Positions 1-55,271 of a stretch of 64,000 bases of DNA are shown here, one piece after another (position 1 is the stretch's first letter; each line of letters begins with the position of its first letter). The notes under the pieces were generated by a model. That model was given only the letters and a program-made list of their open reading frames with translations, did not search any database and was not told the origin of the DNA. The position numbers were made by a program, and so were the translations under genes. This stretch comes from a virus (lineage: Duplodnaviria > Heunggongvirae > Uroviricota > Caudoviricetes). Location: IMG/VR virus record IMGVR_UViG_2939521961_000009. One strand, 5' to 3'.

Positions 1-1201
1 TCCAGTTGCCATCTCCCCGTGATTCCGCACCATAATACCCGGCAGAAGCGATATCCGGGTCGTGCTCCGGCAGGTTGGTCGCGGTTTTATTACCGAACTC
101 ATCGTGCATCAGTGGAACAAAGTGAATGTTCTCGGAAGCCCGGTTTTTATATCCGCTATAAATGGTTTCATATGCCGCCGGGTTCTTCTCTTTCCAGTCA
201 TAGGTTGTGTCACCACATAACCACGGCACACTGTCTGATGAACCACCAATACACTGACCGGAGAAAGCACCAAGATCCGCACGGAATTTTTTCACCATCG
301 CAGTAAACTGGGCACCATGCTGGGCCGGGGTCGCTTTAAGGTCTCCTTCCCCCTGAATCCATACGACAGATAACAGCACATTCTTTGGATTCGCCTCAAG
401 TGCCGCTTTAGTTCGACTGACAAGATCCTGATACAGTGGGGTATCCACTCCCCAGCGTAGTGACGCCTCGGCTGCACCACTTGCCGGATCGAATGAGCCA
501 ACTGCGCCGGTTGTAAAAGCAGAGCCGCCACGGGCACAGGGAACCAGTAAAATCCCGGCATCAGCAGGAATCACCGGTAATACTTTTTTCGCAATATGAA
601 GTCCCTGCCCCACACAACCATACTGCCCTTTTTTCAGGTCTGCTTTTGGATGGTTCAGCAGACTCATATTCTGAACATCATGAAGGCAGTGATCTGCTGG
701 AATGATTTCATTGTATTTGCAGGGAATACCTCCGGGGGTTTGTGTATTCCTGCGTGCCAGCTGCATAATACGTGGATCAGGACGATCATAAGAATCCGGA
801 AGGGGCAACCCTTCACCATAAGATGAAGCATTGGACTGGCCGGCTATAACAATCACGTAATACCAGGAAGGGGAGCTGGAAGCAGTTTCATTTCCTGACG
901 GACGGGTATGTGTTTCAGCATTATCCCAGTCTGACGGTTCAGCAGTACCGGCAACATCAGCACTTAACGGAATGACCGCACCAATACCCGCTCCGGTAAT
1001 TTCCACACTCGGATCACCGGATACTGGCCTTACCCACAGGCAATCCCGTGTATTAAAACTGATGAGACAGTCAGCAAATGTCATTCCTCCTTTTGTTTCG
1101 GCCGGAGGAAAGGGAGCCTCAAGAAATGCCGCTGTACCACCGGAAACTTTAACAGTAAAGTTTCCGGGCATTGATGATAGTTGAACCCATTTGGACGTCA
1201 T
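1..1201 (-). CDS. SASA/DUF303-family sialate O-acetylesterase-like protein (NanS-p-like), N-terminal ~400 aa; continues beyond window start
   Basis: Manual translation from ATG at 1201 (MTSKWVQLSSMPGNFTVKV...) stays open to position 1; absent from ORF track because no stop in window; contains VIVIAGQSNASSYGEG resembling the GQSN catalytic block of SASA esterases. Confidence 0.5.
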   Translation of the reverse strand, partial: MTSKWVQLSSMPGNFTVKVSGGTAAFLEAPFPPAETKGGMTFADCLISFNTRDCLWVRPVSGDPSVEITGAGIGAVIPLSADVAGTAEPSDWDNAETHTRPSGNETASSSPSWYYVIVIAGQSNASSYGEGLPLPDSYDRPDPRIMQLARRNTQTPGGIPCKYNEIIPADHCLHDVQNMSLLNHPKADLKKGQYGCVGQGLHIAKKVLPVIPADAGILLVPCARGGSAFTTGAVGSFDPASGAAEASLRWGVDTPLYQDLVSRTKAALEANPKNVLLSVVWIQGEGDLKATPAQHGAQFTAMVKKFRADLGAFSGQCIGGSSDSVPWLCGDTTYDWKEKNPAAYETIYSGYKNRASENIHFVPLMHDEFGNKTATNLPEHDPDIASAGYYGAESRGDGNW

Positions 1202-1300
1202 AATAATCAGCCTGTTCCTGAATAAACTGAATTATCATATCCACAGACCGATAAACGCCATTTTGCGTTAATTCAGTAAAGGCCCAACAAAGAGAGCGTC

Positions 1301-1861
1301 TTATTTTTCCGAAACGCTCGCAGGATAATAACGATAAAGGGTTGAAAGACCGATATCAAAAATAAGTGCCACCTGTCTTCGACTGACACCCCCGGCCAGT
1401 AAACGCCCGACCTGCTCGTATTGTTCCTGCGTGAGACGGCGGGGTCTGCCGCCGGTTCGTCCCCTTTCACGGGCAGCTGCAAGACCAGCCCGTGTCCGTT
1501 CGACAATTAATTCACGCTCCATTTCTGCCAGCGCACCCATTATGTGAAAAAAGAAACGCCCCATGGGGGTTGACGTATCAATGTTGTCAGTAAGACTACG
1601 AAAATTTATCCCCTGTTGCTGTAATTCATCTGTCAGCGCAACAAGGTGGCGCATACTGCGCCCCAGCCTGTCCAGTTTCCAGACCATCAGTGTGTCACCG
1701 GGTTTTAGTTTCTTCAGTGCCCGCTTCAGTCCCGGCCGCTGTGTCGTTTTACCACTCATTTTGTCTTCAAAAATCTGCTCACATCCTGCACATTCCAGCG
1801 CATTTCTTTGTAAACCGGTGTTCTGGTCATTTGTTGATACGCGTATATAGCCAATCAGCAT
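1301..1861 (-). CDS. pin: DNA invertase, Pin/Gin/Hin-family serine recombinase
   Basis: 186 aa, MLIGYIRVSTNDQNTGLQRNAL... with catalytic Ser motif and C-terminal HTH; near-identical in pattern to e14 Pin / Mu Gin as recalled. Confidence 0.9.
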   Translation of the reverse strand: MLIGYIRVSTNDQNTGLQRNALECAGCEQIFEDKMSGKTTQRPGLKRALKKLKPGDTLMVWKLDRLGRSMRHLVALTDELQQQGINFRSLTDNIDTSTPMGRFFFHIMGALAEMERELIVERTRAGLAAARERGRTGGRPRRLTQEQYEQVGRLLAGGVSRRQVALIFDIGLSTLYRYYPASVSEK

Positions 1862-1916
1862 GTATTTACCTTCCTTAAAAAGAGGTGAAAATGCCTTTTA
1901 AAACAGATATACGGTA

Positions 1917-1942
1917 TCCCTGAAAACCTCGGTTTACGGGAA
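1917..1942. other. gix/pix-like recombination crossover site (left)
   Basis: Reverse complement reads TTCCCGTAAACC GA GGTTTTCAGGGA, closely matching the Mu gix site as recalled (TTCCTGTAAACC GA GGTTTTGGATAA). Confidence 0.6.
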
Positions 1943-2083
1943 ACGGTAAATAAGGCGGCGAATGCCCTGCCATCGAACGGAACGGCTGTTGCAGCGAATA
2001 AACTCGCCACTCCAAGAAATATTAATGGTGTCCCATTTGACGGAACGCAGGATATAAATATTACATCGGGGATGACGCAGTCT
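1931..2083. repeat. Inverted repeat, left copy (~155 bp) of invertible segment
   Basis: Plus-strand 1931-2083 is near-identical to reverse complement of 3152-3304 (e.g. shared GGTTTACGGGAAACGGTAAATAAGGC). Confidence 0.8.
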
Positions 2084-2287
2084 GTGGCTGACTCACGTTA
2101 TGTTCAAAGCATTCGAAGAGGTTCAAGGTCAACGATTGGAATGCAATATAATATTTTTGAAGTTCCTGACGGATGCGTACTTACAGGGCTTGATGTCGCT
2201 GGTGATGGTAATGCAACGGTAACCGCATATTATCGACCTGTTCAGTTTCTGATAGATGGTTCGTGGAAAACAGCTTCCAGCGCATAA
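1931..2287 (+). CDS. Alternative tail-fibre C-terminal segment (S'v-like), no own start, silent in current orientation
   Basis: Open frame through the left repeat into unique sequence ...SVADSRYVQSIRRG...YYRPVQFLIDGSWKTASSA; parallels the expressed fibre tip. Confidence 0.55.
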   Translation, partial: GLRETVNKAANALPSNGTAVAANKLATPRNINGVPFDGTQDINITSGMTQSVADSRYVQSIRRGSRSTIGMQYNIFEVPDGCVLTGLDVAGDGNATVTAYYRPVQFLIDGSWKTASSA

Positions 2288-2366
2288 AAGTGCAGTAGTT
2301 CAAAAAACAGATTATCTGAATAAATATATGATGATTTTGTCTTTTCAACAAAAACAAGGTGAAATA

Positions 2367-2888
2367 ATGGAGCTTATTAACGTAAAACGATATTACCCGG
2401 AACACAAACCCTATGGTGAGGATGTTCAGTATTTCCAGAGTGAGGACGGAAGGGATTTTTATGAATCTATCCCGCTTTTCACAAAGAAATACAAACTCTG
2501 TATTTCGCCTGTAACGGGTATTATCTGCTCTGTTGCTGAAGATGTCTCTGCTTTATATCCGGCAGGTTTTACTGTTGTTGAAGTGGACGAACTGCCGGAA
2601 GGTGTGAATATTGACGGTAACTGGCAGTTTTCTGATGGCCTGATATCAAAGGTGCCGGTAAACTGGAAGACGGTTGCTGAAAAGCGTCGCTCATCGCTGC
2701 TCCAGGAAGCCAACGAAACCGTGGATGACTGGAAAACAGAATTAAAACTGGACATGATTAGCGATGAAAATAAATTACAGCTGACGCGCTGGATGGCGTA
2801 TATCCGACAGCTTAAAGAAATGCACTTTAATGATATTGCCAGTGAGGGGCATTACCAGGCGATTCCCTGGCCGGAAAAACCGGAATAA
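2367..2888 (+). CDS. Tail fibre assembly protein (Tfa/U-like), in the currently inverted (non-expressed) orientation
   Basis: MELINVKRYYPEHKPYGEDVQYF... typical Tfa N-terminus; AAGGTGA Shine-Dalgarno 5 nt upstream of ATG at 2367; ORF track lists a longer 2256 start. Confidence 0.8.
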   Translation: MELINVKRYYPEHKPYGEDVQYFQSEDGRDFYESIPLFTKKYKLCISPVTGIICSVAEDVSALYPAGFTVVEVDELPEGVNIDGNWQFSDGLISKVPVNWKTVAEKRRSSLLQEANETVDDWKTELKLDMISDENKLQLTRWMAYIRQLKEMHFNDIASEGHYQAIPWPEKPE

Positions 2889-2922
2889 TTCAGAGGGTGC
2901 ATTCAGCACCCTTTTCTGTGGT

Positions 2923-3834
2923 TTACACTGAACTTACCGTTCTCCAGGCATTATTAATATAAATCTGAACCGGGCGATAATAGACCCCACCGATATTGTC
3001 CGCAGACCGGGAGCCGGTTTCCTGCACGTTAATACCGGAAAGCATACAACCGGAAGGTGCGCTGTAATTCCATGATATTTCATTGCCTCCGGGTGAATGA
3101 TAGCTCTGTGCTCCAAGCTGAACATTCTGTACATACCGGCCATCTGCGGTTGACTGCGTCATTCCTGACGTGATGTTGATATCCTGCGTTCCGTCAAAAG
3201 GAACGCCATTAATATTTCTTGGGGTGGCGAGTCTGTTTGCTGCCACGGCGGTTCCACCCGATGGCAGGGCATCAGCAGCCTTATTTACCGTTTCCCGTAA
3301 ACCGACGTTATCGATAAAAGCGCCTTTATCCGGAATGTCTGCGCCGTTCTGCTCCCTGCGCAGGTAACGGTTATCACCTTCGCTTTTGCTGTAAACATCC
3401 AGATTATTACGGGCGGTTCCCGCATTCTCCAGGTCGGCAAGGTTCTGATCCTTCGCCAGAGCATTAACGTCACCGGGACCAAGACTGTTTTTTGTGGCAA
3501 GCGCCCCAAGACCAAGATAACCACGGGCAAGACGCTGGGCTTCCGCACCGGCATCAGCAATTTCTTTCAGGTTGTTTTTCCGGGAAAAGGCATTCGCAGC
3601 GATAATGGCTTTAATGGACAGCGTAAGCTGGTTTAACTGCGCCTTATCCGGCTGAATACTGGCTTCAGCCAGAATATTCAGCAGTTCGGCCTGGAGAATA
3701 TTCAGCCAGTCCTGACCAATCCAGCTGATACCTTTTTGTCCGTCACCTTCGGTAAACCAGGTGGTGGTATTACTCTGCGCCGGTGCCAGCGCAGGCATAT
3801 TCGCCACGCCGGAATTATTATCAACATGAAACAT
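2923..3834 (-). CDS. Tail fibre protein (Mu S-like); constant N-terminus fused to the currently expressed variable tip
   Basis: 303 aa; C-terminus crosses the gix site and right inverted repeat; start overlaps stop of upstream gene at 3834. Confidence 0.8.
   Translation of the reverse strand: MFHVDNNSGVANMPALAPAQSNTTTWFTEGDGQKGISWIGQDWLNILQAELLNILAEASIQPDKAQLNQLTLSIKAIIAANAFSRKNNLKEIADAGAEAQRLARGYLGLGALATKNSLGPGDVNALAKDQNLADLENAGTARNNLDVYSKSEGDNRYLRREQNGADIPDKGAFIDNVGLRETVNKAADALPSGGTAVAANRLATPRNINGVPFDGTQDINITSGMTQSTADGRYVQNVQLGAQSYHSPGGNEISWNYSAPSGCMLSGINVQETGSRSADNIGGVYYRPVQIYINNAWRTVSSV
3152..3304. repeat. Inverted repeat, right copy of invertible segment
   Basis: Reverse complement matches 1931-2083; encodes the conserved ...ATPRNINGVPFDGTQDINITSGMTQ stretch in both tail-fibre variants. 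Confidence 0.8.
3292..3317. other. gix/pix-like recombination crossover site (right)
   Basis: TTCCCGTAAACC GA CGTTATCGATAA on plus strand; shares the 12-bp half-site with the left site in inverted orientation. Confidence 0.6.
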
Positions 3835-4394
3835 TAAATAGTCTCCTCTTCATGGCTGTTTGCATACACGTAAATAAACGTCTGCCATGCAGGCTTATAA
3901 CGGTTCAGAATACATTCCAGCGCACCGCCTTCATAAATACGCAGCGGCGTGAGAATATCATCCAGCACATTCATATTCCGGTAGCCGGTTTCACTGTTAA
4001 TCGTGACAATACTGACCCACTGTGAATCCGGTGATGGCTGAATATCTATTTCATAACCAAACTCTGCCGCAAACCGGATATAAAATTCACGGTTAAGAGA
4101 GGGTTTCATCCGGTATTTATTCCCGGCATAACGCTGACGCTCCTGAATGGTTGCGCCGGTCATATCACATTCCGGTAACCCCAGATAACGCTCCCAGTCT
4201 TCCAGCAGCAGACGGGATGAATCAGGAAAACGTTCTGCCAGCATCTGGTTACCGGTCCAGGAAACACGCTCCGTGGAATGACTGAGGCCCAGGCACAAAG
4301 CCGCAAGAACGGATGACGGCCGCTTATCCCATGCCAGCCCGTCAGGCAGCAACTGCAACAGGGCACGCTGATGCGGGGTCAGGGTTACAGCCAT
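3834..4394 (-). CDS. Tail protein, Mu gp48-like (DUF2313 / YmfQ-like)
   Basis: 186 aa; position between baseplate J-like gene and tail fibre; family resemblance from memory. Confidence 0.7.
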   Translation of the reverse strand: MAVTLTPHQRALLQLLPDGLAWDKRPSSVLAALCLGLSHSTERVSWTGNQMLAERFPDSSRLLLEDWERYLGLPECDMTGATIQERQRYAGNKYRMKPSLNREFYIRFAAEFGYEIDIQPSPDSQWVSIVTINSETGYRNMNVLDDILTPLRIYEGGALECILNRYKPAWQTFIYVYANSHEEETI

Positions 4395-5470
4395 GTGATT
4401 TCCCCCACGGTCAGCAACTCTGTATCTCCGGCCATCACGGACTTCAGCGGGCTGCGAACTTCAAAATCCTCCAGTCCTTTCACCCCTGCAACAGCCCGCC
4501 AGAATGATGAAGGCAATACAAGTCCACCCGGCCGCGATTCGTTATAAAGCAGGTCCGTTAATGCCTGTTTTACGGCAGCCTGATTTTCCGGCGTTTTGGG
4601 TACAATCCTGATCTCAAACGCCACCGGCTTATTGGTCAGCTTAAACACGCTGATTGTCGGCCCAAGTGGCTGACCAACGGGCTGGCCCGTCGCCGGATCA
4701 TCATGACTGCGGATATAATCCGCCACCCGCTTCACATCACCTTCTCCGGGGAAAATGTCAGGGTTATTATCCTGAACAAAAGTCACACCAACACTACCCG
4801 CCTCAGGCCATTCAGGCTTACACCATGCCCGCGTCACGCCCGGTACTTCCCGTGCCCAGCGTTCAAAATCATACTGTGTTCCCCCTGATGGCGGGTTCTG
4901 TACCCGGAATACCAGCCTGGACAGCAACTCCGGCACCGTTTCCACATCCGCACCACCGGTGAGTCCCGTGCCGGTGACCGTGGCTGTCTGGTTGATGCCC
5001 GCCTGTGGCGTGATAAAGGACAGGCGGGTTCCGGTCGGGGTATTTCCAGCGCGCCCCGCACTTTCCGCCTCCACATTAACATTCAGTGTTCCGGCTTTTC
5101 CGGTCGCAGAGCCGGTGATGCGGTACACAACACCATCGCTTCGCTGAAGGAGTACGCCTTCCGTGATCCCTGCATCCGTGGTCAGCATCAGTTGTACCGG
5201 TCCGTCAGCGCGGGAAGCCGGTTTACGGATGACACCCCAGAATGCGCAGTGTTTCAGGAGTTCGGCTTCATCAGCTTCTGTCGGAATTATCTGCCGGGAG
5301 ATCCAGGCCAGATGTTCATGCTCCTGTGCTGACAGACCCGCCAGTGCATACGCAATGGCATTCAGGGTGGTTTCATTCACGCCCGGCTGCGAACCGGGCA
5401 GGCGCTGGCTGATATCCTGTTGTGTCTGTGTGATCAGTTGCGCCAGTGGTAAGGGCTGATAAGGCATCAT
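4385..5470 (-). CDS. Baseplate J-like protein (Mu gp47-like)
   Basis: 361 aa; synteny in Mu-type baseplate cluster. Confidence 0.8.
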   Translation of the reverse strand: MMPYQPLPLAQLITQTQQDISQRLPGSQPGVNETTLNAIAYALAGLSAQEHEHLAWISRQIIPTEADEAELLKHCAFWGVIRKPASRADGPVQLMLTTDAGITEGVLLQRSDGVVYRITGSATGKAGTLNVNVEAESAGRAGNTPTGTRLSFITPQAGINQTATVTGTGLTGGADVETVPELLSRLVFRVQNPPSGGTQYDFERWAREVPGVTRAWCKPEWPEAGSVGVTFVQDNNPDIFPGEGDVKRVADYIRSHDDPATGQPVGQPLGPTISVFKLTNKPVAFEIRIVPKTPENQAAVKQALTDLLYNESRPGGLVLPSSFWRAVAGVKGLEDFEVRSPLKSVMAGDTELLTVGEITWL

Positions 5471-25172: not shown

Positions 25173-25598
25173 TCAGAAAAGTGGCGGTTGCGTTCTTGCC
25201 AGATGCAGACGGCGCTGTTCGCGTATGACGGTATAAATCTGGGTTTCTGACATCCGGTAATGGCGGCGAAGGGATTCAATTTTCTCGCCCCGGTCCCAGC
25301 GCGAAAATATCTCATTGTTTCGCAGCTCGGCAAAGAGAGATTCCCCGACCGGCAGGTAATAACCCCGTCCGCCCATATAGGCTGCCTGAGCCGCAGCCAC
25401 CTTGCGTGCCAGTTTACCGGCCAGTACCGGCTCAATCCCCTGACGCTGAAGTTCTGCGCCGGTGACTTCAACCAGTTCTGACAGGGTCCGCGGCCAGTTC
25501 TTTTTGAGAACATCATCAGGGATGTCATCAAGGCGGTCGATAAGGGCGTGCAGTTGCTCACTGTCACCACCAAACATGCTCATCTGAGTTTCTGCCAT
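25173..25598 (-). CDS. Mor/C-family transcriptional activator (late/middle gene activator)
   Basis: 141 aa with C-terminal HTH-like region, positioned immediately upstream of the lysis/late genes as in Mu. Confidence 0.75.
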   Translation of the reverse strand: MAETQMSMFGGDSEQLHALIDRLDDIPDDVLKKNWPRTLSELVEVTGAELQRQGIEPVLAGKLARKVAAAQAAYMGGRGYYLPVGESLFAELRNNEIFSRWDRGEKIESLRRHYRMSETQIYTVIREQRRLHLARTQPPLF

Positions 25599-25667
25599 AT
25601 CAGCCTCCGGTTCTCGCGTTCCCGGTAAGTTTAAAATAAAAATCCCGCGTTGTGGCGGGATTTGGAG

Positions 25668-26177
25668 TTAACGGGGAAGTGATTTTTCATACTGCCTGCA
25701 AACGGCGTCATACCCCATCAGCGTGCGTTCGGGCATTCCCATCGCGGCCAGCATTTTGCGGCGGTGCCATCGCTTGAGACGCTCCAGCACATCTGAGGCC
25801 AGGGCGGGGTGTTGCTCCAGCCACTGCCAGTTTGCCACACCTTCGCCGCCGTTTTGCGCGGCCGTCTGCGATTTCACCCAGCGGTTAAGGGCGGTTTCCG
25901 CACCATCGGTGATAAAGCCCTGCCGGTGCATCACCTTCCAGATGGCGCGAATTTTGGCGGTCACCGTACCCGGTTTTAAGGCCCGGTTAACCGGGTTCTG
26001 ACGCACTTTAAAACCGCGTTTTTTGAAAACATCCAGCACGCGGGATAACTCATCCGGTGACATATCCCGGCAGCTGGTTTTGCCGGTGGCTGCCAGCAGC
26101 GCGGATGTATAAGTCTCATCATCCAGGGCAAGCTCGCGCTTTGCCACATGAATGGCGGATATCAGTTTTCCTCTCAT
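25668..26177 (-). CDS. GemA-like protein (Mu gp16-like)
   Basis: 169 aa, position upstream of Mor/C-like gene. Confidence 0.65.
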   Translation of the reverse strand: MRGKLISAIHVAKRELALDDETYTSALLAATGKTSCRDMSPDELSRVLDVFKKRGFKVRQNPVNRALKPGTVTAKIRAIWKVMHRQGFITDGAETALNRWVKSQTAAQNGGEGVANWQWLEQHPALASDVLERLKRWHRRKMLAAMGMPERTLMGYDAVCRQYEKSLPR

Positions 26178-26470
26178 ACCGTATTTACCTTTTTACGGAC
26201 ATGGAAAGCCTTTTCTGCCTCATCCCACCGGGCATGGTGTGTTGGTGGAATAATCATTATGTGCCAGCCATCTCTGGTTGTTATCCGGCAGAAAAATTCA
26301 CCGCTATATAACACAATGGCCTGCTGAATGAGCGCATCAGCCGCCCGTTCAACCGGATGTCTTTTATCAAAAAAGCAGATGATTTTTCGACATAACCACC
26401 GGGTAATAACAAATGCGCCGAAAAAGGATGTGATATATAAGCACCAGAACAACAGAGAACTATTGTCCAT
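26174..26470 (-). CDS. Hypothetical small membrane-anchored protein (accessory cassette)
   Basis: 98 aa with N-terminal hydrophobic helix; overlaps upstream gene by 11 bp; AT-rich. Confidence 0.5.
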   Translation of the reverse strand: MDNSSLLFWCLYITSFFGAFVITRWLCRKIICFFDKRHPVERAADALIQQAIVLYSGEFFCRITTRDGWHIMIIPPTHHARWDEAEKAFHVRKKVNTV

Positions 26471-26657
26471 TATCTTTCTCCTTATTCAGTCTTCTGCGAC
26501 ATTCGGCACAGTCATCAGGGCTTTCAAATGTATCCGGCTCGCGATTATGAGCCAGATATAACCACCGCCTACATATACTGATATTATCGCCAGTTTTAAA
26601 AAAATGATGCTTCTTAGCCATCAGAGGGCGCGCCCATCCAGCGGGTAGACTATTCAT
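26460..26657 (-). CDS. Hypothetical small protein (accessory cassette)
   Basis: 65 aa; overlaps neighbours at both ends. Confidence 0.45.
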   Translation of the reverse strand: MNSLPAGWARPLMAKKHHFFKTGDNISICRRWLYLAHNREPDTFESPDDCAECRRRLNKEKDNGQ

Positions 26658-27024
26658 TTGCTTTATCCTCCATACTGGACAAAATCATCTGTATTAATGT
26701 CGGGCGTGGAGATATACGCATTTCATTAAGCGTCTGAAGGGCAGCAACAGCTGCCTGTTTATCGGTGCCTTTGGCAATTTCCGCAAGAGAATGCACAATC
26801 CATAACGGACTTAACGCCACGACTGAATCCAGAATCATGTCATCCATAATAATTTCTGACACATCCCGCTTATCACATTCCTTATCCATAAAAGAAACGA
26901 TTTTTTCCACATCTTCCGGTTTCATGCCTCCGGCGATAAGAAATTTGCGATACTCATAAGACGATCTTAATTCAATACTCATATTCATCTCCTGTAACTC
27001 TGACAAGGACGTGATTTTTCTCAT
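26650..27024 (-). CDS. Hypothetical acidic protein (accessory cassette)
   Basis: 124 aa; ATG overlaps stop of the restored upstream small ORF (ATGA). Confidence 0.5.
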   Translation of the reverse strand: MRKITSLSELQEMNMSIELRSSYEYRKFLIAGGMKPEDVEKIVSFMDKECDKRDVSEIIMDDMILDSVVALSPLWIVHSLAEIAKGTDKQAAVAALQTLNEMRISPRPTLIQMILSSMEDKANE

Positions 27025-27118
27025 TTATGTTTTCCAGTAATACGGATATATATGTCGATAAGAAGATTCATAATAAACAGGAAGAGCGACATCCTGATAA
27101 AGAACCAAATATCTGGCA

Positions 27119-27205
27119 TCATGGACAGGTTTCCTGTAATCGCAAATATAACCCCCCCCCCAACACCGGAACGAAAATTGCGAAAAATACAAGTCTCTTT
27201 ATCAT
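27119..27205 (-). pseudogene. Small membrane-protein ORF interrupted by G10 tract (28 codons as sequenced; 61 aa to 27021 if tract is G11 or G8)
   Basis: ATG 27205 overlaps stop of upstream gene; MIKRLVFFAIFVPVLGGG then frame exits; restored frame is hydrophobic and ends in ATGA overlap with next gene. Confidence 0.45.
27152..27161. repeat. Homopolymeric tract, C10 on plus strand (G10 on coding strand)
   Basis: Ten consecutive C at 27152-27161. Confidence 0.95.
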
Positions 27206-27753
27206 GGCGTTAACTCCCGTAATACAGCGTCCTCGGCAGTCCGGCGATGGTGATAAATAAAATTCACCGTACTCTCGGATAATTCAAATTTCTCGCCTAT
27301 TTCCCGGAAGGTAAGACGTCGTGGTGATTCAGCATCCCGTAATTCACGAATAAGATGAACATCATCGTCAGGTATACGGGTGAAGGGCAGCAATTCTCCG
27401 TATTTTTTCATGCTTACGCCAATATATCGCGCCCGATTGTGGACAGAATCCCGGTCTCGCCCCAGATATTCTCCTATTTGCTTACCGGTCATCGTTCTGG
27501 CATTTTTTCGGATAAATTTATCTTCATCATGTTTAAATCTTGGACGTTTGCATTTGAGCAACTCCGGGTAAGTACCGCGTAATAAAACAATCCGGTTATG
27601 TACACCCCAGAAACTTCTTTTTACCCTGACAGCAATATCCTTAACCGGGGTGGATGGATAAAGCGCAATCAGCAGCGCATCTTCTTCAGGTGTCCACGCA
27701 CGGACATGAGCAGGTGCCTGACCTTTTCGCCCCATGGGTTGTAAAATCATCAT
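27202..27753 (-). CDS. Hypothetical protein, possible DNA-binding regulator
   Basis: 183 aa basic protein with repeated helix-rich segments; function not recognised. Confidence 0.5.
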   Translation of the reverse strand: MMILQPMGRKGQAPAHVRAWTPEEDALLIALYPSTPVKDIAVRVKRSFWGVHNRIVLLRGTYPELLKCKRPRFKHDEDKFIRKNARTMTGKQIGEYLGRDRDSVHNRARYIGVSMKKYGELLPFTRIPDDDVHLIRELRDAESPRRLTFREIGEKFELSESTVNFIYHHRRTAEDAVLRELTP

Positions 27754-27756
27754 ACA

Positions 27757-28272
27757 TCACCCCCTGACTCGCTTTTCAGCAGCATAAAACTCATCAGACA
27801 GAATTTCGGTCATTTTCTGATTTGCGGGTTTTACGCCGCACTCAAGGTAAATCACATCGTCAACGCAGAACCACTTCACAGGGCCAAACATGATTGCCGA
27901 GAAATCAATACCCAGCCAGAACAACAGTGCATCGGTTCTGGCATACGTGACGGGCGAATATTCACGCCACAGACTGTTAAGTTCGTCAGAGGCAACGCGC
28001 AGGGCTTTGGGAATACGTGATGTGCGCGGTGTGCAGCTCCAGCCATTCGACGCAGTCGGTTTTCGCCATAAGTCGCGATGAAAAGGATATTTGTCATCCA
28101 TAAAGCGCAGCCCTTTAAAACAAAAGCCACTGATACCGGATACAAATACCGACCGGCACGCAACATTCAGCACGGCCTCAAGGCGTTTTGCCTCATCCTT
28201 AACTTTCTGGCAGTCCTGCTGATATTTTTGCCACGCGGCCAGCGCGGAAGGGTTTGATGTTTTAAAGAACAT
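27757..28272 (-). CDS. Hypothetical early-region protein
   Basis: 171 aa ORF, tightly packed with neighbours. Confidence 0.5.
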   Translation of the reverse strand: MFFKTSNPSALAAWQKYQQDCQKVKDEAKRLEAVLNVACRSVFVSGISGFCFKGLRFMDDKYPFHRDLWRKPTASNGWSCTPRTSRIPKALRVASDELNSLWREYSPVTYARTDALLFWLGIDFSAIMFGPVKWFCVDDVIYLECGVKPANQKMTEILSDEFYAAEKRVRG

Positions 28273-41113: not shown

Positions 41114-41317
41114 CATTTTCACTTTTTTAAATCCAACGACAGACGGCTGGCATTTAAGTATTGTGAAATATTATCAAATGTAATCATCATTGATTTACAA
41201 AAGATACATTTTGCCCCGAAAGGATTCATGTCAGAAACATCAAAAGATGATGTTCTATACTGGGAACCATGACAACACGGGCATCTAAAGTGAATATGGT
41301 TTGTAATATTGTCTACC

Positions 41318-41530
41318 TCAAAGCGCCACTACATGAACAGCGGCAGGACCTTTAGGTCCGTTCTCAATACCAAATTCAACTTCCTGATTCTCAGTTAATG
41401 TTTTGAAATCGTTGCTCTGAATTGCTGAGAAATGGACAAACACATCTTTGCTGCCATCTTTCGGCGTGATGAAACCAAAACCTTTTTCAGGGTTAAACCA
41501 TTTCACTAAACCAGTCATTTTGTTAGACAT
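41318..41530 (-). CDS. cspI: Cold-shock protein CspI-like
   Basis: 70 aa [42 protein letters not shown]... Confidence 0.9.
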
Positions 41531-41892
41531 AATTATTACCTTTTGAAGAAATTAGCCCTTGGGCAGAATGGTCCGAAAAAAAATATCAGAGAGAAAAACC
41601 AACAAGGAAATCTCAAGAGGTACAAATAATAAAATTATAACAATGACTGCTTCAGATAAATTTGTAACAAACCAGAACACCATTAACGCATGATTAACCA
41701 CCCATAGCAAGGATTACTTTTGTAAAGAAAAACACAGCAATGAAAGAATAGCTTTATTTATTAATAAAACGTGTCATTCTGATTAAGACCTTTTATCTTA
41801 CCCTTAAGATTTCAGGAATTTTGGCTCATGGAAGAGTCCTTTTTATTTAAATTTTACATTCCGCGATGTAAATGTTCCGATTTAATATTACC

Positions 41893-43920: not shown

Positions 43921-44201
43921 GAGATTGTGGTGCTTTTTGTGGGAGTCATCCACTTACGCACTTTGTTTTGCGATGCCAGCAGTTAGCTTCTGCTGTGAAA
44001 CTATTCATGCAGCAAACCTGCACTTCACCACAATGGTTAGCATACTTTTCCTGATTAAGATTTTGCCAAATATGCTAGCCATTGTTTCATGTATTGGACC
44101 TCCTTACTTTTTATTAAAGAGATCCAATATTCACTACTCTGTCCGTATCTCTACTCAGGCATCAGCCTTCTTCGTTATCGTATACAGACGAGCGATGAAT
44201 T

Positions 44202-44417
44202 TTAATCAGTAATGATGACATTTGCTGCTGCAGGACCTTTAGCACCTCTCTCTATAGAGAAGGTAACCTTTTGACCTTCAAATAAGGTTCGATAATTATC
44301 ATTCTGAATCGCAGAAAAATGCACAAACACATCTTTACTACCATCAACAGGAGAAATAAAGCCGAAACCTTTATCAGCGTTAAACCATTTTACTAAACCA
44401 GTCATTTTATTTGACAT
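44202..44417 (-). CDS. cspB: Cold-shock protein CspB-like
   Basis: 71 aa [51 protein letters not shown]... Confidence 0.9.
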
Positions 44418-44717
44418 TCTACATTCCTTAACTTGAGCCTTTCGGCATAAATGGTTTGCATAACAGAAACGACTTCGTACTTAATTGGAGAGACTCAAAG
44501 AAGGAATAAGTGAATAACACCTGAAATGAGAACTGCTTTAGTAAACTACTTCGTATATCGTCTGTTCTTCAAACCGACGCAATCATTAACGCATAGTTGA
44601 ACATATGAAGCAATGTTTATTTTAGACATCCAGCCATCTTCAACCCCATCAAAAAACTATAGCTTTCTTCAGGAACGTGTGTATAGTGCGCCAAGTTATC
44701 AGTATTAAGGAATTTTT

Positions 44718-55218: not shown

Positions 55219-55271
55219 TTTCTGGTGACGTTTGGCGGTATCAGTTTTACTCCGTGACTGCTCTGCCGCCC
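55219..55271 (+). ncRNA. dicF: DicF small regulatory RNA
   Basis: tttctggtgacgtttggcggtatcagttttactccgtgactgctctgccgccc followed by T-run; matches DicF as recalled. Confidence 0.8.

What the first reader, a model, noticed from the sequence alone, without database searches (positions are those of the whole stretch)
26174..27205. AT-rich accessory cassette of small overlapping genes in the Mu-like early region
Between gemA and the larger early genes lies a ~1 kb stretch visibly more AT-rich than the flanking phage core. It encodes a chain of overlapping ORFs on the minus strand: the poly-G-interrupted membrane ORF, a 124-aa acidic protein, a 65-aa Cys-containing protein and a 98-aa protein with an N-terminal transmembrane helix. 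Composition, compactness and position in the semi-essential early region fit a horizontally acquired moron. A superinfection-exclusion, anti-defence or toxin-like function is a guess; I recognise none of the proteins.
Basis: partly seen in the sequence, partly recalled or inferred. Interest (0 to 1): 0.6.

Follow-up and report, generated by a model that had tools for sequence, protein, structure and literature searches.

The report
Variable small-gene slot in Mu-like prophage
This AT-rich kilobase is the swappable "accessory slot" at the end of the early operon of an Sp18-type Mu-like prophage of E. coli: four tiny genes of unknown function (one broken by a run of G's), a familiar kind of phage feature rather than a new system.

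Summary
Window 26174-27205 has 41.9% GC, against 57% in the late genes and 55% for the whole prophage. It carries four tightly packed minus-strand genes: a 61-aa two-helix membrane peptide broken by a G10 run, an acidic helical protein (probably 110 aa, not 124), a 65-aa His/Cys3 mini-protein and a 98-aa membrane-anchored protein. The prophage is an Sp18-like (E. coli O157 Sakai) Mu relative.

Seven related prophages show six different gene sets at exactly this slot, between a conserved HTH gene and gemA. Mu and SfMu carry other small genes there. The genes are under purifying selection (dN/dS 0.11-0.21). Nothing above chance marks a promoter or terminator inside the slot, so it is an accessory region of the early lytic operon, not a classical moron.

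No function could be assigned from Pfam, NCBIfam, PADLOC, PDB, AlphaFold or fold searches. Counter-defence or host takeover during lytic growth is the best guess. It rests on position, variability and relatives of the 65-aa protein in virulent Pseudomonas phages.

The G10 run is a one-base loss from a rare G11 allele. It is either a real frameshift or a sequencing error. The feature is ordinary in kind, and the genes are already annotated as hypothetical proteins in many genomes.

The parts
27202..27753 (-). o183: 183-aa basic (pI 9.9) HTH DNA-binding protein. It is the conserved left border of the variable slot and is still AT-rich (46% GC).
   Evidence: PHROG 323 'transcriptional regulator, D5-like' E=6e-59. 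Weak HTH Pfam hits at residues 131-167. The C-terminal part is 31% identical to Mu gp9. Present in all 7 Sp18-like loci compared (family F1).
27021..27205 (-). TM61: small two-helix membrane protein gene, frameshifted here. The 28-aa (27119-27205) and 33-aa (27021-27122) pieces overlap as ATGA. The intact form is 61 aa: MIKRLVFFAIFVPVLGGGVIFAITGNLSMMPDIWFFIRMSLFLFIMNLLIDIYIRITGKHK.
   Evidence: Intact and annotated in Sakai (ECs_5772) and in strain 2012C-4502. Hydropathy shows two hydrophobic segments; pI 10.4. dN/dS 0.17-0.21. Weak PHROG 19804 hit.
27152..27161 (-). G10 homopolymer (C10 on the + strand) that breaks the TM61 frame.
   Evidence: The otherwise identical relatives 2012C-4502 and War have G11 and an intact ORF. 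Other relatives have interrupted tracts of the same total length. Only 2 of 5426 complete E. coli genomes carry exact G11.
26650..26982 (-). o110: acidic (pI 4.8), predicted all-helical 110-aa protein.
   Evidence: PHROG 1988 E=5e-44, aligned from residue 15 of the 124-aa ORF. RefSeq start at Met15. 36% identical to SfMu gp14. 36-50% identical relatives in E. coli, Shigella and Salmonella Mu-like prophages. AlphaFold2 gives six helices but only pLDDT 64.
26460..26657 (-). o65: 65-aa protein with conserved His18, Cys29, Cys52 and Cys55 (in the window protein's own numbering; the tool's invariant lists label the last two C50/C53); a probable zinc-binding mini-domain.
   Evidence: PHROG 2358 E=3e-33. 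H18, C29 and the CxxC pair are invariant or nearly invariant in the alignments and are kept in Pantoea phage PA1 and Pseudomonas phage 14-1 gp85. tblastn hits in 287 phage records, 268 of them Pseudomonas. AlphaFold2 pLDDT 76, pTM 0.60.
26174..26470 (-). o98: 98-aa protein with an N-terminal transmembrane helix followed by a basic stretch and a roughly 65-aa soluble domain. It is the right border gene of the slot in this variant and overlaps the gemA start.
   Evidence: PHROG 17269 E=2e-32. Only one real distant relative (49%) among 1.84 billion representatives. A 28% identical, same-architecture homologue sits at the same position in a Salmonella prophage. Hydropathy.
25668..26177 (-). gemA homologue: the conserved right flank of the slot.
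   Evidence: Pfam GemA E=3e-30. 44% identical to Mu GemA.
25640..25663 (-). Intrinsic-terminator-like hairpin plus T-run just after gemA; the likely end of the early transcript that carries the cassette.
   Evidence: 9-bp stem with 5 GC pairs, followed by TTATTTT.
27757..28272 (-). Mu gp12 homologue: conserved core early gene upstream of o183.
   Evidence: 54% identical to Mu gp12. PHROG 2314 E=1e-85.

Best explanation
The region is the hypervariable accessory slot at the promoter-distal end of the early (Pe-type) operon of an Sp18-like transposable prophage. It holds four independent, exchangeable small genes: TM61 (a two-helix membrane peptide), o110 (an acidic helical protein), o65 (a His/Cys3 mini-protein) and o98 (a membrane-anchored protein).

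Shown: the position, the tight coupling of the genes, the variability between close relatives, the purifying selection, the low GC and the lack of any known domain.

Inferred:
1. The genes are co-transcribed with transposase, Gam and GemA only when the repressor is lifted.
2. They are translated by coupling from one gene to the next.
3. They act early in lytic growth as small binding proteins that modify or block host components (counter-defence or host takeover).
4. Each works on its own rather than as part of a four-gene machine.

In this copy TM61 is split by a one-base contraction of a rare G11 tract. That is either a real inactivating or splitting mutation or a homopolymer sequencing error.
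For: Identity of the element:
- The region is 95.7% identical over 1.2 kb to prophage Sp18 of O157 Sakai and 100% identical to strain 2012C-4502 apart from one G.
- GemA, Mor, Gam, Mu gp11 and Mu gp12 homologues flank it.

Variable slot:
- Between conserved o183 and gemA, seven Sp18-like loci show six gene arrangements drawn from at least ten small-gene families.
- The gp12-gemA span takes at least six sizes among 233 E. coli records: 2552, 3020, about 2110, 2962, 2574 and 3145 bp.
- Against the Mu-like phage inserted in Stx2c phage JNE082796, 18 nt of the window are replaced by 890 nt carrying three ORFs.
- Mu has gp13/gp14/Mu_54 in this slot, and SfMu has gp13/gp14/gp15.

Part of the early operon:
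- Stop and start codons overlap and each start has a Shine-Dalgarno box.
- Promoter-like sites number 5 against 8.1 expected, and terminator-like sites 5 against 6.8.
- A good terminator follows gemA.
- No flanking repeats.

Real genes: dN/dS is 0.11-0.21.

Independent modules:
- o98-like occurs without o110 or o65 in L008.
- o110-like occurs without o65 or o98 in L009.
- o65-like stands alone directly upstream of gemA in a divergent Salmonella Mu-like prophage.

Lytic-phase role: o65 relatives sit among small early genes of Pseudomonas Pbunavirus phages such as 14-1, and of Klebsiella and Pantoea phages. That Pbunaviruses are strictly virulent is my own knowledge.

Precedent: Silas et al. (bioRxiv 10.1101/2023.04.06.535777) describe such variable 'accessory regions' as enriched in counter-defence genes. 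They place one, gnarl2 = Mu E6/Mup07, in Mu's early region.
Against: - All alternative modules of the slot are also of unknown function, so there is no guilt by association with a known anti-defence gene.
- The consensus promoter scan is crude and cannot exclude a weak or non-sigma-70 internal promoter.
- Two of the four products are membrane proteins, which is also typical of superinfection-exclusion factors.
- o110 and o98 co-occur at 41% and 28% identity in a Salmonella relative, which hints that these two could be functionally linked.
Confidence: 0.7

Rival explanations
1. Classical moron or lysogenic-conversion cassette. The genes are expressed from the repressed prophage via their own promoter. 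The membrane proteins TM61 and o98 would then exclude superinfecting phages or alter the cell surface of the lysogen.
For: Low GC. Two small membrane proteins. Gene content varies between close relatives. One weak promoter-like site on the coding strand lies inside o98 (26284-26256, 9 of 12 matches).
Against: Promoter- and terminator-like sites are no more frequent than in shuffled sequence, and none lies upstream of the cassette. The genes are translationally coupled to the upstream early genes. o65 relatives occur in phages without a lysogenic state. The one candidate promoter lies downstream of three of the four genes.
Confidence: 0.15
2. The poly-G tract is a contingency locus. Slippage switches TM61 between an intact two-helix protein (G11) and an off or split state (G10), giving phase-variable expression of an early membrane protein.
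For: - G10 in the window against G11 in two otherwise identical prophages.
- A graded allele series lengthens the G run while keeping the frame: G5TTGG, G6TGG, G9, G11.
- An independent +1 frameshift sits in the same tract in ECP19-798 and in one IMG/VR contig.
- In the G10 form the two pieces overlap as ATGA, so both halves could still be made.
Against: - Most relatives have an interrupted, non-slippery tract.
- Exact G11 occurs in only 2 of 5426 complete genomes, so the tract is not a conserved feature of the gene.
- Only three sequences carry a long run, which is too few to show switching.
- Homopolymer length errors are common in assemblies.
- A gene silent in the lysogen accumulates such frameshifts neutrally.
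Confidence: 0.1
3. The G10 interruption is an assembly or sequencing artefact, and TM61 is intact (G11) in the real genome.
For: The window differs from strain 2012C-4502 by exactly this one base over 2551 bp. It is a 10-11 base homopolymer, the classic site of length miscalls (general knowledge).
Against: A real frameshift in the same tract is annotated in another complete genome, so genuine inactivation of this gene does occur. No read data are available to decide.
Confidence: 0.45
4. The four genes are conserved helper functions of Mu-type replication or transposition (like the old genetic functions arm and lig of Mu's semi-essential region) rather than conflict genes.
For: They lie inside the semi-essential early region next to gam, gp11, gp12 and gemA. 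o110 has homologues at the same place in SfMu, in Yersinia Mu-like phages and in Salmonella prophages. The genes are under purifying selection.
Against: Natural Sp18-like prophages lack three of the four genes (L008) or replace them with unrelated genes (L009, L010). Mu itself has none of them. o65 occurs in non-transposable phages.
Confidence: 0.08
5. The cassette is a single multi-gene system (toxin-antitoxin, abortive infection or defence system) whose parts need each other.
For: The genes are compact and overlapping, and small membrane proteins could be toxic. o110, o65 and o98 travel together in four of the seven loci.
Against: No PADLOC hit. Each gene is found without the others in some relative.
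Confidence: 0.04

Closest known systems
Prophage Sp18 of E. coli O157:H7 Sakai (genes ECs_4956, ECs_5772, ECs_4957-4959) and its relatives in about 230 complete E. coli genomes
   Same: Same gene order and 95.7-100% nucleotide identity over the region. All are annotated 'hypothetical protein'. Sp18 is described as a probably intact Mu-like prophage (PMC2669165).
   Different: The window carries the rare homopolymer allele of the TM61 tract, one G short, so its TM61 is split. Sakai has GGGGGGTTGGTT and an intact gene.
Semi-essential early region of phage Mu, genes gp13 (E14), gp14 (E15) and Mu_54 between gp12 and gemA; SfMu gp13-gp15
   Same: Same slot in the same operon. It is also filled with 55-100 aa proteins of unknown function, one of them Cys-rich, and is also AT-richer than its flanks: 46.5% against 53-55%. 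o110 is 36% identical to SfMu gp14. A Mu gp14 homologue fills the slot in E. coli NCCP 13963.
   Different: None of the four window proteins has a detectable homologue in Mu itself. The window slot overlaps gemA directly, whereas Mu has about a 100-nt gap annotated with a 'semi-early promoter'.
Phage 'accessory regions' of variable counter-defence genes (Silas et al., bioRxiv 10.1101/2023.04.06.535777)
   Same: Conserved flanking core genes, variable small uncharacterised genes between them, and exchange between related phages. Mu's early region already supplied one such gene, gnarl2/Mup07.
   Different: None of the window's genes was found in that study's supplementary files held as text. No counter-defence activity is shown for any of them.
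Morons (extra transcription units in lambdoid prophages, Juhala/Hendrix definition; from my own knowledge)
   Same: Extra genes present in some relatives and absent in others, with deviating base composition.
   Different: Nothing above chance for its own promoter or terminator. The genes are embedded by translational coupling in a lytic operon.
Homopolymer-tract contingency genes (phase variation by slipped-strand mispairing, as in Haemophilus and Neisseria; my own knowledge)
   Same: A G10/G11 run inside the coding sequence, where a length change shifts the frame.
   Different: The tract is not conserved in the gene family, and no population-level length variation has been demonstrated.

Membership tests
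Sp18-like / Mu-like transposable prophage early operon | Flanked by Mu-type early genes in Mu order (A, B, gam, gp11, gp12 ... gemA, mor) on one strand | tested here: met
   Pfam GemA, Mor and Gp11_C hits. tblastn to Mu: gam 57%, gp11 67%, gp12 55%, gemA 44%. Sakai Sp18 is 95.7% identical.
Phage accessory region (variable slot between conserved core genes) | Conserved genes on both sides in related genomes | tested here: met
   Families F1 (o183) and F2 (gp12) on one side and F0 (gemA) on the other are present in all 7 loci.
Phage accessory region (variable slot between conserved core genes) | Different gene content in the slot among closely related genomes | tested here: met
   Six arrangements in 7 loci from at least ten small-gene families. 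At least six span lengths among 233 records. An 890-nt / 3-ORF indel.
Phage accessory region (variable slot between conserved core genes) | Genes antagonise host defence or modify the host | not testable with these tools
   No domain, solved-structure or fold match for any member.
Moron | Own promoter upstream and terminator downstream (autonomous transcription unit) | tested here: not met
   Consensus scan: 5 promoter-like sites against 8.1±3.1 expected and 5 terminator-like against 6.8±2.5. None brackets the cassette. The only good coding-strand terminator follows gemA. The scan covers sigma-70 consensus only.
Moron | Base composition different from neighbouring phage genes | tested here: met
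   41.9% GC against 57.3% (late genes) and 49.6-53.4% (gp12, gp11).
Moron | Expressed from the repressed prophage | not testable with these tools
   Needs transcript data. No paper in the searched library mentions ECs4956-4960.
Phase-variable contingency gene | Long homopolymer inside the reading frame | tested here: met
   G10 at 27152-27161.
Phase-variable contingency gene | Tract length varies between or within strains and switches the frame | tested here: inconclusive
   G10 (window) against G11 (2 genomes). A separate +1 event in a shorter run in 2 sequences. No within-strain data.
Phase-variable contingency gene | Tract conserved across the gene family | tested here: not met
   Most alleles have interrupted tracts (GGGGGTTGGTT and similar). 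Exact G11 occurs in 2 of 5426 genomes.
Known anti-phage defence systems (PADLOC) | Match to a defence-system protein model | tested here: not met
   No hits for the four small proteins at E<=0.1.
Zinc-ribbon / treble-clef mini-proteins (for o65) | Four conserved metal ligands with a CxxC knuckle at a helix start | tested here: inconclusive

The most novel reading that the evidence does not exclude
One or more of the four proteins is a new counter-defence or host-takeover factor. The best candidate is the o65 His/Cys3 mini-protein family, which is shared by Mu-like prophages of enterobacteria and by Pseudomonas Pbunavirus, Klebsiella and Pantoea phages. In addition, the G-run in TM61 could be a true slippage switch that toggles an early membrane protein between a hairpin and two split single-helix peptides.
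Probability: 0.2. Interest if true: 0.55.

Novelty: new member of a known kind. Interest (0 to 1): 0.3.

Why it matters
It gives a cleanly delimited natural "plug-in" site in a transposable phage family that is common in Shiga-toxin-producing E. coli. The site is bounded by o183 and gemA, and at least ten interchangeable small-gene families of unknown function fill it. Such slots are where phage counter-defence genes have repeatedly been found. The slot is therefore a sensible place to screen, and o65, with its reach into unrelated phages, is the most attractive candidate. As it stands, the finding adds no new mechanism. The genes are already annotated as hypothetical proteins in hundreds of genomes.

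Tried and rejected
Domain and defence libraries:
- Pfam, NCBIfam and PADLOC scans of the four proteins and of family alignments gave nothing usable. The scattered weak hits (DUF4473, Kunitz, PRAI) are inconsistent and below cut-offs.
- PHROGs only returned 'unknown function' families.

Structure:
- PDB sequence searches gave nothing, apart from a weak RNF4 RING-tail similarity for o65 at domain E of about 4.
- AlphaFold2 of o110 was too uncertain to use (pLDDT 64).

Other searches:
- An exhaustive HMMER search with o98 found one real relative plus repetitive junk.
- Guilt by association failed, because all alternative slot modules are also unknown.
- There are no flanking direct or inverted repeats, so this is not an IS, integron cassette or transposon.
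- Rfam found no RNA family in the region.
- A search for Mu's left-end sequence found nothing, because the ends have diverged.
- Literature searches for Sp18 gene names and Mu semi-essential genes gave no functional data.
- The Silas et al. supplements do not contain these proteins.

A correction to my own earlier inference: I first concluded from alignment lengths that about 30 close relatives carry G11. A direct 71-nt search showed that only 2 do.
Full report
**What is there.** The window's first ~35.6 kb belong to a Mu-like prophage read on the minus strand. The early operon runs from the repressor/ner end (about 35.5 kb) down to gemA. Homologues of Mu gam (57%), gp11 (67%), gp12 (55%), gemA (44%) and a single Mor/C-type activator are present in Mu order. 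The DNA of the finding is 95.7% identical to prophage Sp18 of E. coli O157:H7 Sakai. Apart from one base, it is 100% identical over 2551 bp to strain 2012C-4502. Sp18 is described in the literature as a probably intact Mu-like prophage (PMC2669165).

**Check of the observation.** The composition claim is correct.
- Window 26174-27205 has 41.9% GC, against 57.3% (sd 1.7) for the late/middle genes and 54.9% for the prophage.
- Only 0.6% of same-size windows in the prophage are as low.
- Per gene, GC is 0.375 (TM61), 0.41 (o110), 0.44 (o65) and 0.44 (o98), against 0.57 for gemA and 0.50-0.53 for gp12/gp11. The dip extends into o183 (0.46), so the AT-rich stretch is about 1.6 kb.

The ORFs are as described, with two adjustments.
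- The membrane ORF starts at 27205 and is broken by G10 at 27152-27161. With one more G it encodes 61 aa with two hydrophobic helices.
- The '124-aa' protein most likely starts at Met15, giving 110 aa with pI 4.8. The evidence is an AGGAG box six bases upstream, the RefSeq starts, the PHROG alignment and SfMu gp14.

Junctions overlap (ATGA, 8 nt, 11 nt, ATGA) and each start has a Shine-Dalgarno box. dN/dS of 0.11-0.21 for TM61, o110 and o65 shows they are genes under purifying selection. o98 has relatives at 49% and 28% identity with the same length and architecture.

**What it is.** I compared seven Sp18-like loci (window; Sakai; FRIK804/2014C-3011; STEC2018-607; AF39; NCCP 13963; the Mu-like phage inserted in Stx2c phage JNE082796). 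gp12, the HTH protein o183 and gemA are always present. The genes between o183 and gemA differ:

| Locus | Genes in the slot |
|---|---|
| Window and Sakai | TM61, o110, o65, o98 |
| FRIK804 | F5, F7, o110, o65, o98 |
| JNE082796 | TM61, F12, F5, F7, o110, o65, o98 |
| STEC2018-607 | F5, o98-like |
| AF39 | F5, F7, o110-like, opposite-strand DUF2513 gene |
| NCCP 13963 | F5, Mu-gp14 homologue, opposite-strand 79-aa gene |

- Across 233 E. coli records the gp12-gemA span takes at least six lengths.
- Against JNE082796, 18 nt of the window correspond to 890 nt with three ORFs.
- Mu fills the slot with gp13/gp14/Mu_54, and SfMu with gp13/gp14/gp15. Only o110 has a Mu-family homologue (SfMu gp14, 36%).
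- In a divergent Salmonella Mu-like prophage an o65 homologue stands alone directly upstream of gemA. In a Salmonella Sp18-like prophage, o110-like (41%) and o98-like (28%) genes sit in the slot with other partners.
- The slot is AT-richer than both flanks in every relative examined: Mu 0.465, SfMu 0.46, Salmonella 0.49, E. coli variants 0.44-0.47.

**How it is expressed (inferred).** Promoter-like and terminator-like sites in 24.5-30.5 kb are no more frequent than in shuffled sequence. None brackets the cassette. The only convincing coding-strand terminator lies right after gemA, at 25663-25640. There are no flanking repeats and no Rfam hit. Together with the overlapping junctions, this points to co-transcription with the early operon after derepression and to translational coupling. 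The autonomous expression that defines a moron is not supported. A weak promoter-like site inside o98 (26284-26256) could at most serve gemA.

**What the genes do.** I could assign no function.
- Pfam, NCBIfam and PADLOC gave nothing for the four proteins.
- PHROGs places each in a family of unknown function.
- No sequence relative has a solved structure.
- o110 is predicted to be six helices, but at low confidence (pLDDT 64).
- o65 has conserved His18, Cys29, Cys52 and Cys55 (window numbering; the alignment tool lists the last two as C50/C53) from E. coli to Pseudomonas phage 14-1 gp85. Its model is fair (pLDDT 76), with a helix starting at the CxxC. Fold searches were insignificant.
- o98 is nearly an orphan: one real relative among 1.84 billion representatives.
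- All alternative modules of the slot are also unknown.

My preferred reading is that these are early lytic-phase binding proteins acting on host targets, in counter-defence or host takeover. It rests on the following:
- their place in the early operon;
- the hypervariability of the slot;
- their small size and lack of any enzyme domain;
- their independence from one another;
- o65 relatives among small early genes of Pseudomonas Pbunavirus phages (virulent, by my own knowledge) and of Klebsiella and Pantoea phages;
- the precedent of Mu E6/Mup07 = gnarl2.

A lysogen-expressed exclusion function is less likely, but the two membrane proteins keep it open.

**The poly-G tract.** Relatives show a series of in-frame alleles of constant length:

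| Tract | Carrier | State |
|---|---|---|
| TGGGGATTGGTTTT | JNE082796 Mu-like phage (L002) | intact |
| TGGGGGTTGGTTTT | four IMG/VR contigs | intact |
| GGGGGGTTGGTTTT | Sakai | intact |
| TGGGGGGTGGTTTT | IMG/VR contig L018 | intact |
| TGGGGGGGGGTTTT (G9) | strain 93_0495 | intact |
| TGGGGGGGGGGGTT (G11) | strains 2012C-4502 and War | intact |
| G10 | window | frameshift (-1) |

- Exact G11 occurs in only 2 of 5426 complete genomes.
- An independent +1 frameshift in the shorter run occurs in ECP19-798, where it is annotated 'frameshifted', and in one IMG/VR contig.
- In the G10 form the 28-aa and 33-aa pieces overlap as ATGA, so both halves might still be translated.
- I cannot tell a real mutation from a homopolymer miscall. 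I give roughly even odds to an artefact and about 0.1 to true phase variation.

**Comparison and novelty.** The closest known things are Sp18 itself (the same genes, annotated as hypothetical), the gp13-gp15 slot of Mu's semi-essential early region, and phage accessory regions in general.
- The feature meets the definition of an accessory region.
- It fails the promoter/terminator criterion of a moron.
- It does not match any defence-system model.
- It only partly meets the criteria of a contingency locus.

It is a new, well-delimited member of a known kind. Interest is modest (0.3). It would rise if o65 or another member proved to be a new inhibitor of host immunity.

Noticed in passing
window 27152-27161; loci L002, L003, L004, L016-L024: The G-rich tract in TM61 shows a stepwise series of T-to-G changes that lengthen the G run (G4A, G5, G6, G9, G11) while keeping the frame. 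There are also two independent frameshifts: -1 in the window, and +1 in ECP19-798 and one IMG/VR contig.
   Followed up: partly
window 25640-25663 (minus strand): A strong terminator-like hairpin lies between gemA and the single Mor/C-type activator gene (25173-25598). Sp18-like phages have one Mor/C homologue (39% to Mu C, 27% to Mu Mor) followed directly by the lysozyme gene, whereas Mu has two activators with gp18-gp20 between them.
   Followed up: no
window 41291-41676 and 44186-44578 (minus), 55220-55271 (plus): Rfam finds two cspA-type thermoregulator leaders and a DicF sRNA. With GC as low as 35-45% in 38-56 kb, this suggests a second, Qin-like defective lambdoid prophage in the right half of the window.
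   Followed up: no
NZ_CP074995.1 (166-kb plasmid) 77573-78774 and NZ_CP074994.1 chromosome, strain 8479: The same Sp18-like early region (99.8% identical to the window) is present on both a large plasmid and the chromosome of one strain, as expected from recent transposition of the prophage.
   Followed up: no
window 26174-27753 versus Sakai locus L003: Synonymous divergence is mosaic. gemA and o98 are almost identical to Sakai (dS <= 0.016), while o65, o110, TM61 and o183 differ at dS of about 0.16-0.2. This places a recombination junction near the o98/o65 boundary.
   Followed up: partly
locus L005 (SfMu NC_027382) 3443-3944: SfMu's homologue of Mu gp12 is split across two reading frames and left unannotated in the record. 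It lies in the about 500-bp 'gap' between its gp12 and gp13.
   Followed up: no
locus L015 (Salmonella) 4444-4863; locus L006 (Klebsiella phage K70PH128C1) 3992-4189 and 6610-7188: Module shuffling below gene level: the first 46 residues of slot family F5 are fused to an unrelated C-terminal domain in Salmonella. The non-Mu Klebsiella phage carries both an o65 homologue and a 'D5-like' regulator annotated like o183 within about 2.5 kb of small early genes.
   Followed up: no
window 1-4000: By extrapolation from Sakai Sp18 coordinates, the prophage's right end lies about 3 kb beyond the start of the window. The window therefore begins inside the prophage. GC drops to 47-49% in the first 4 kb.
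   Followed up: no
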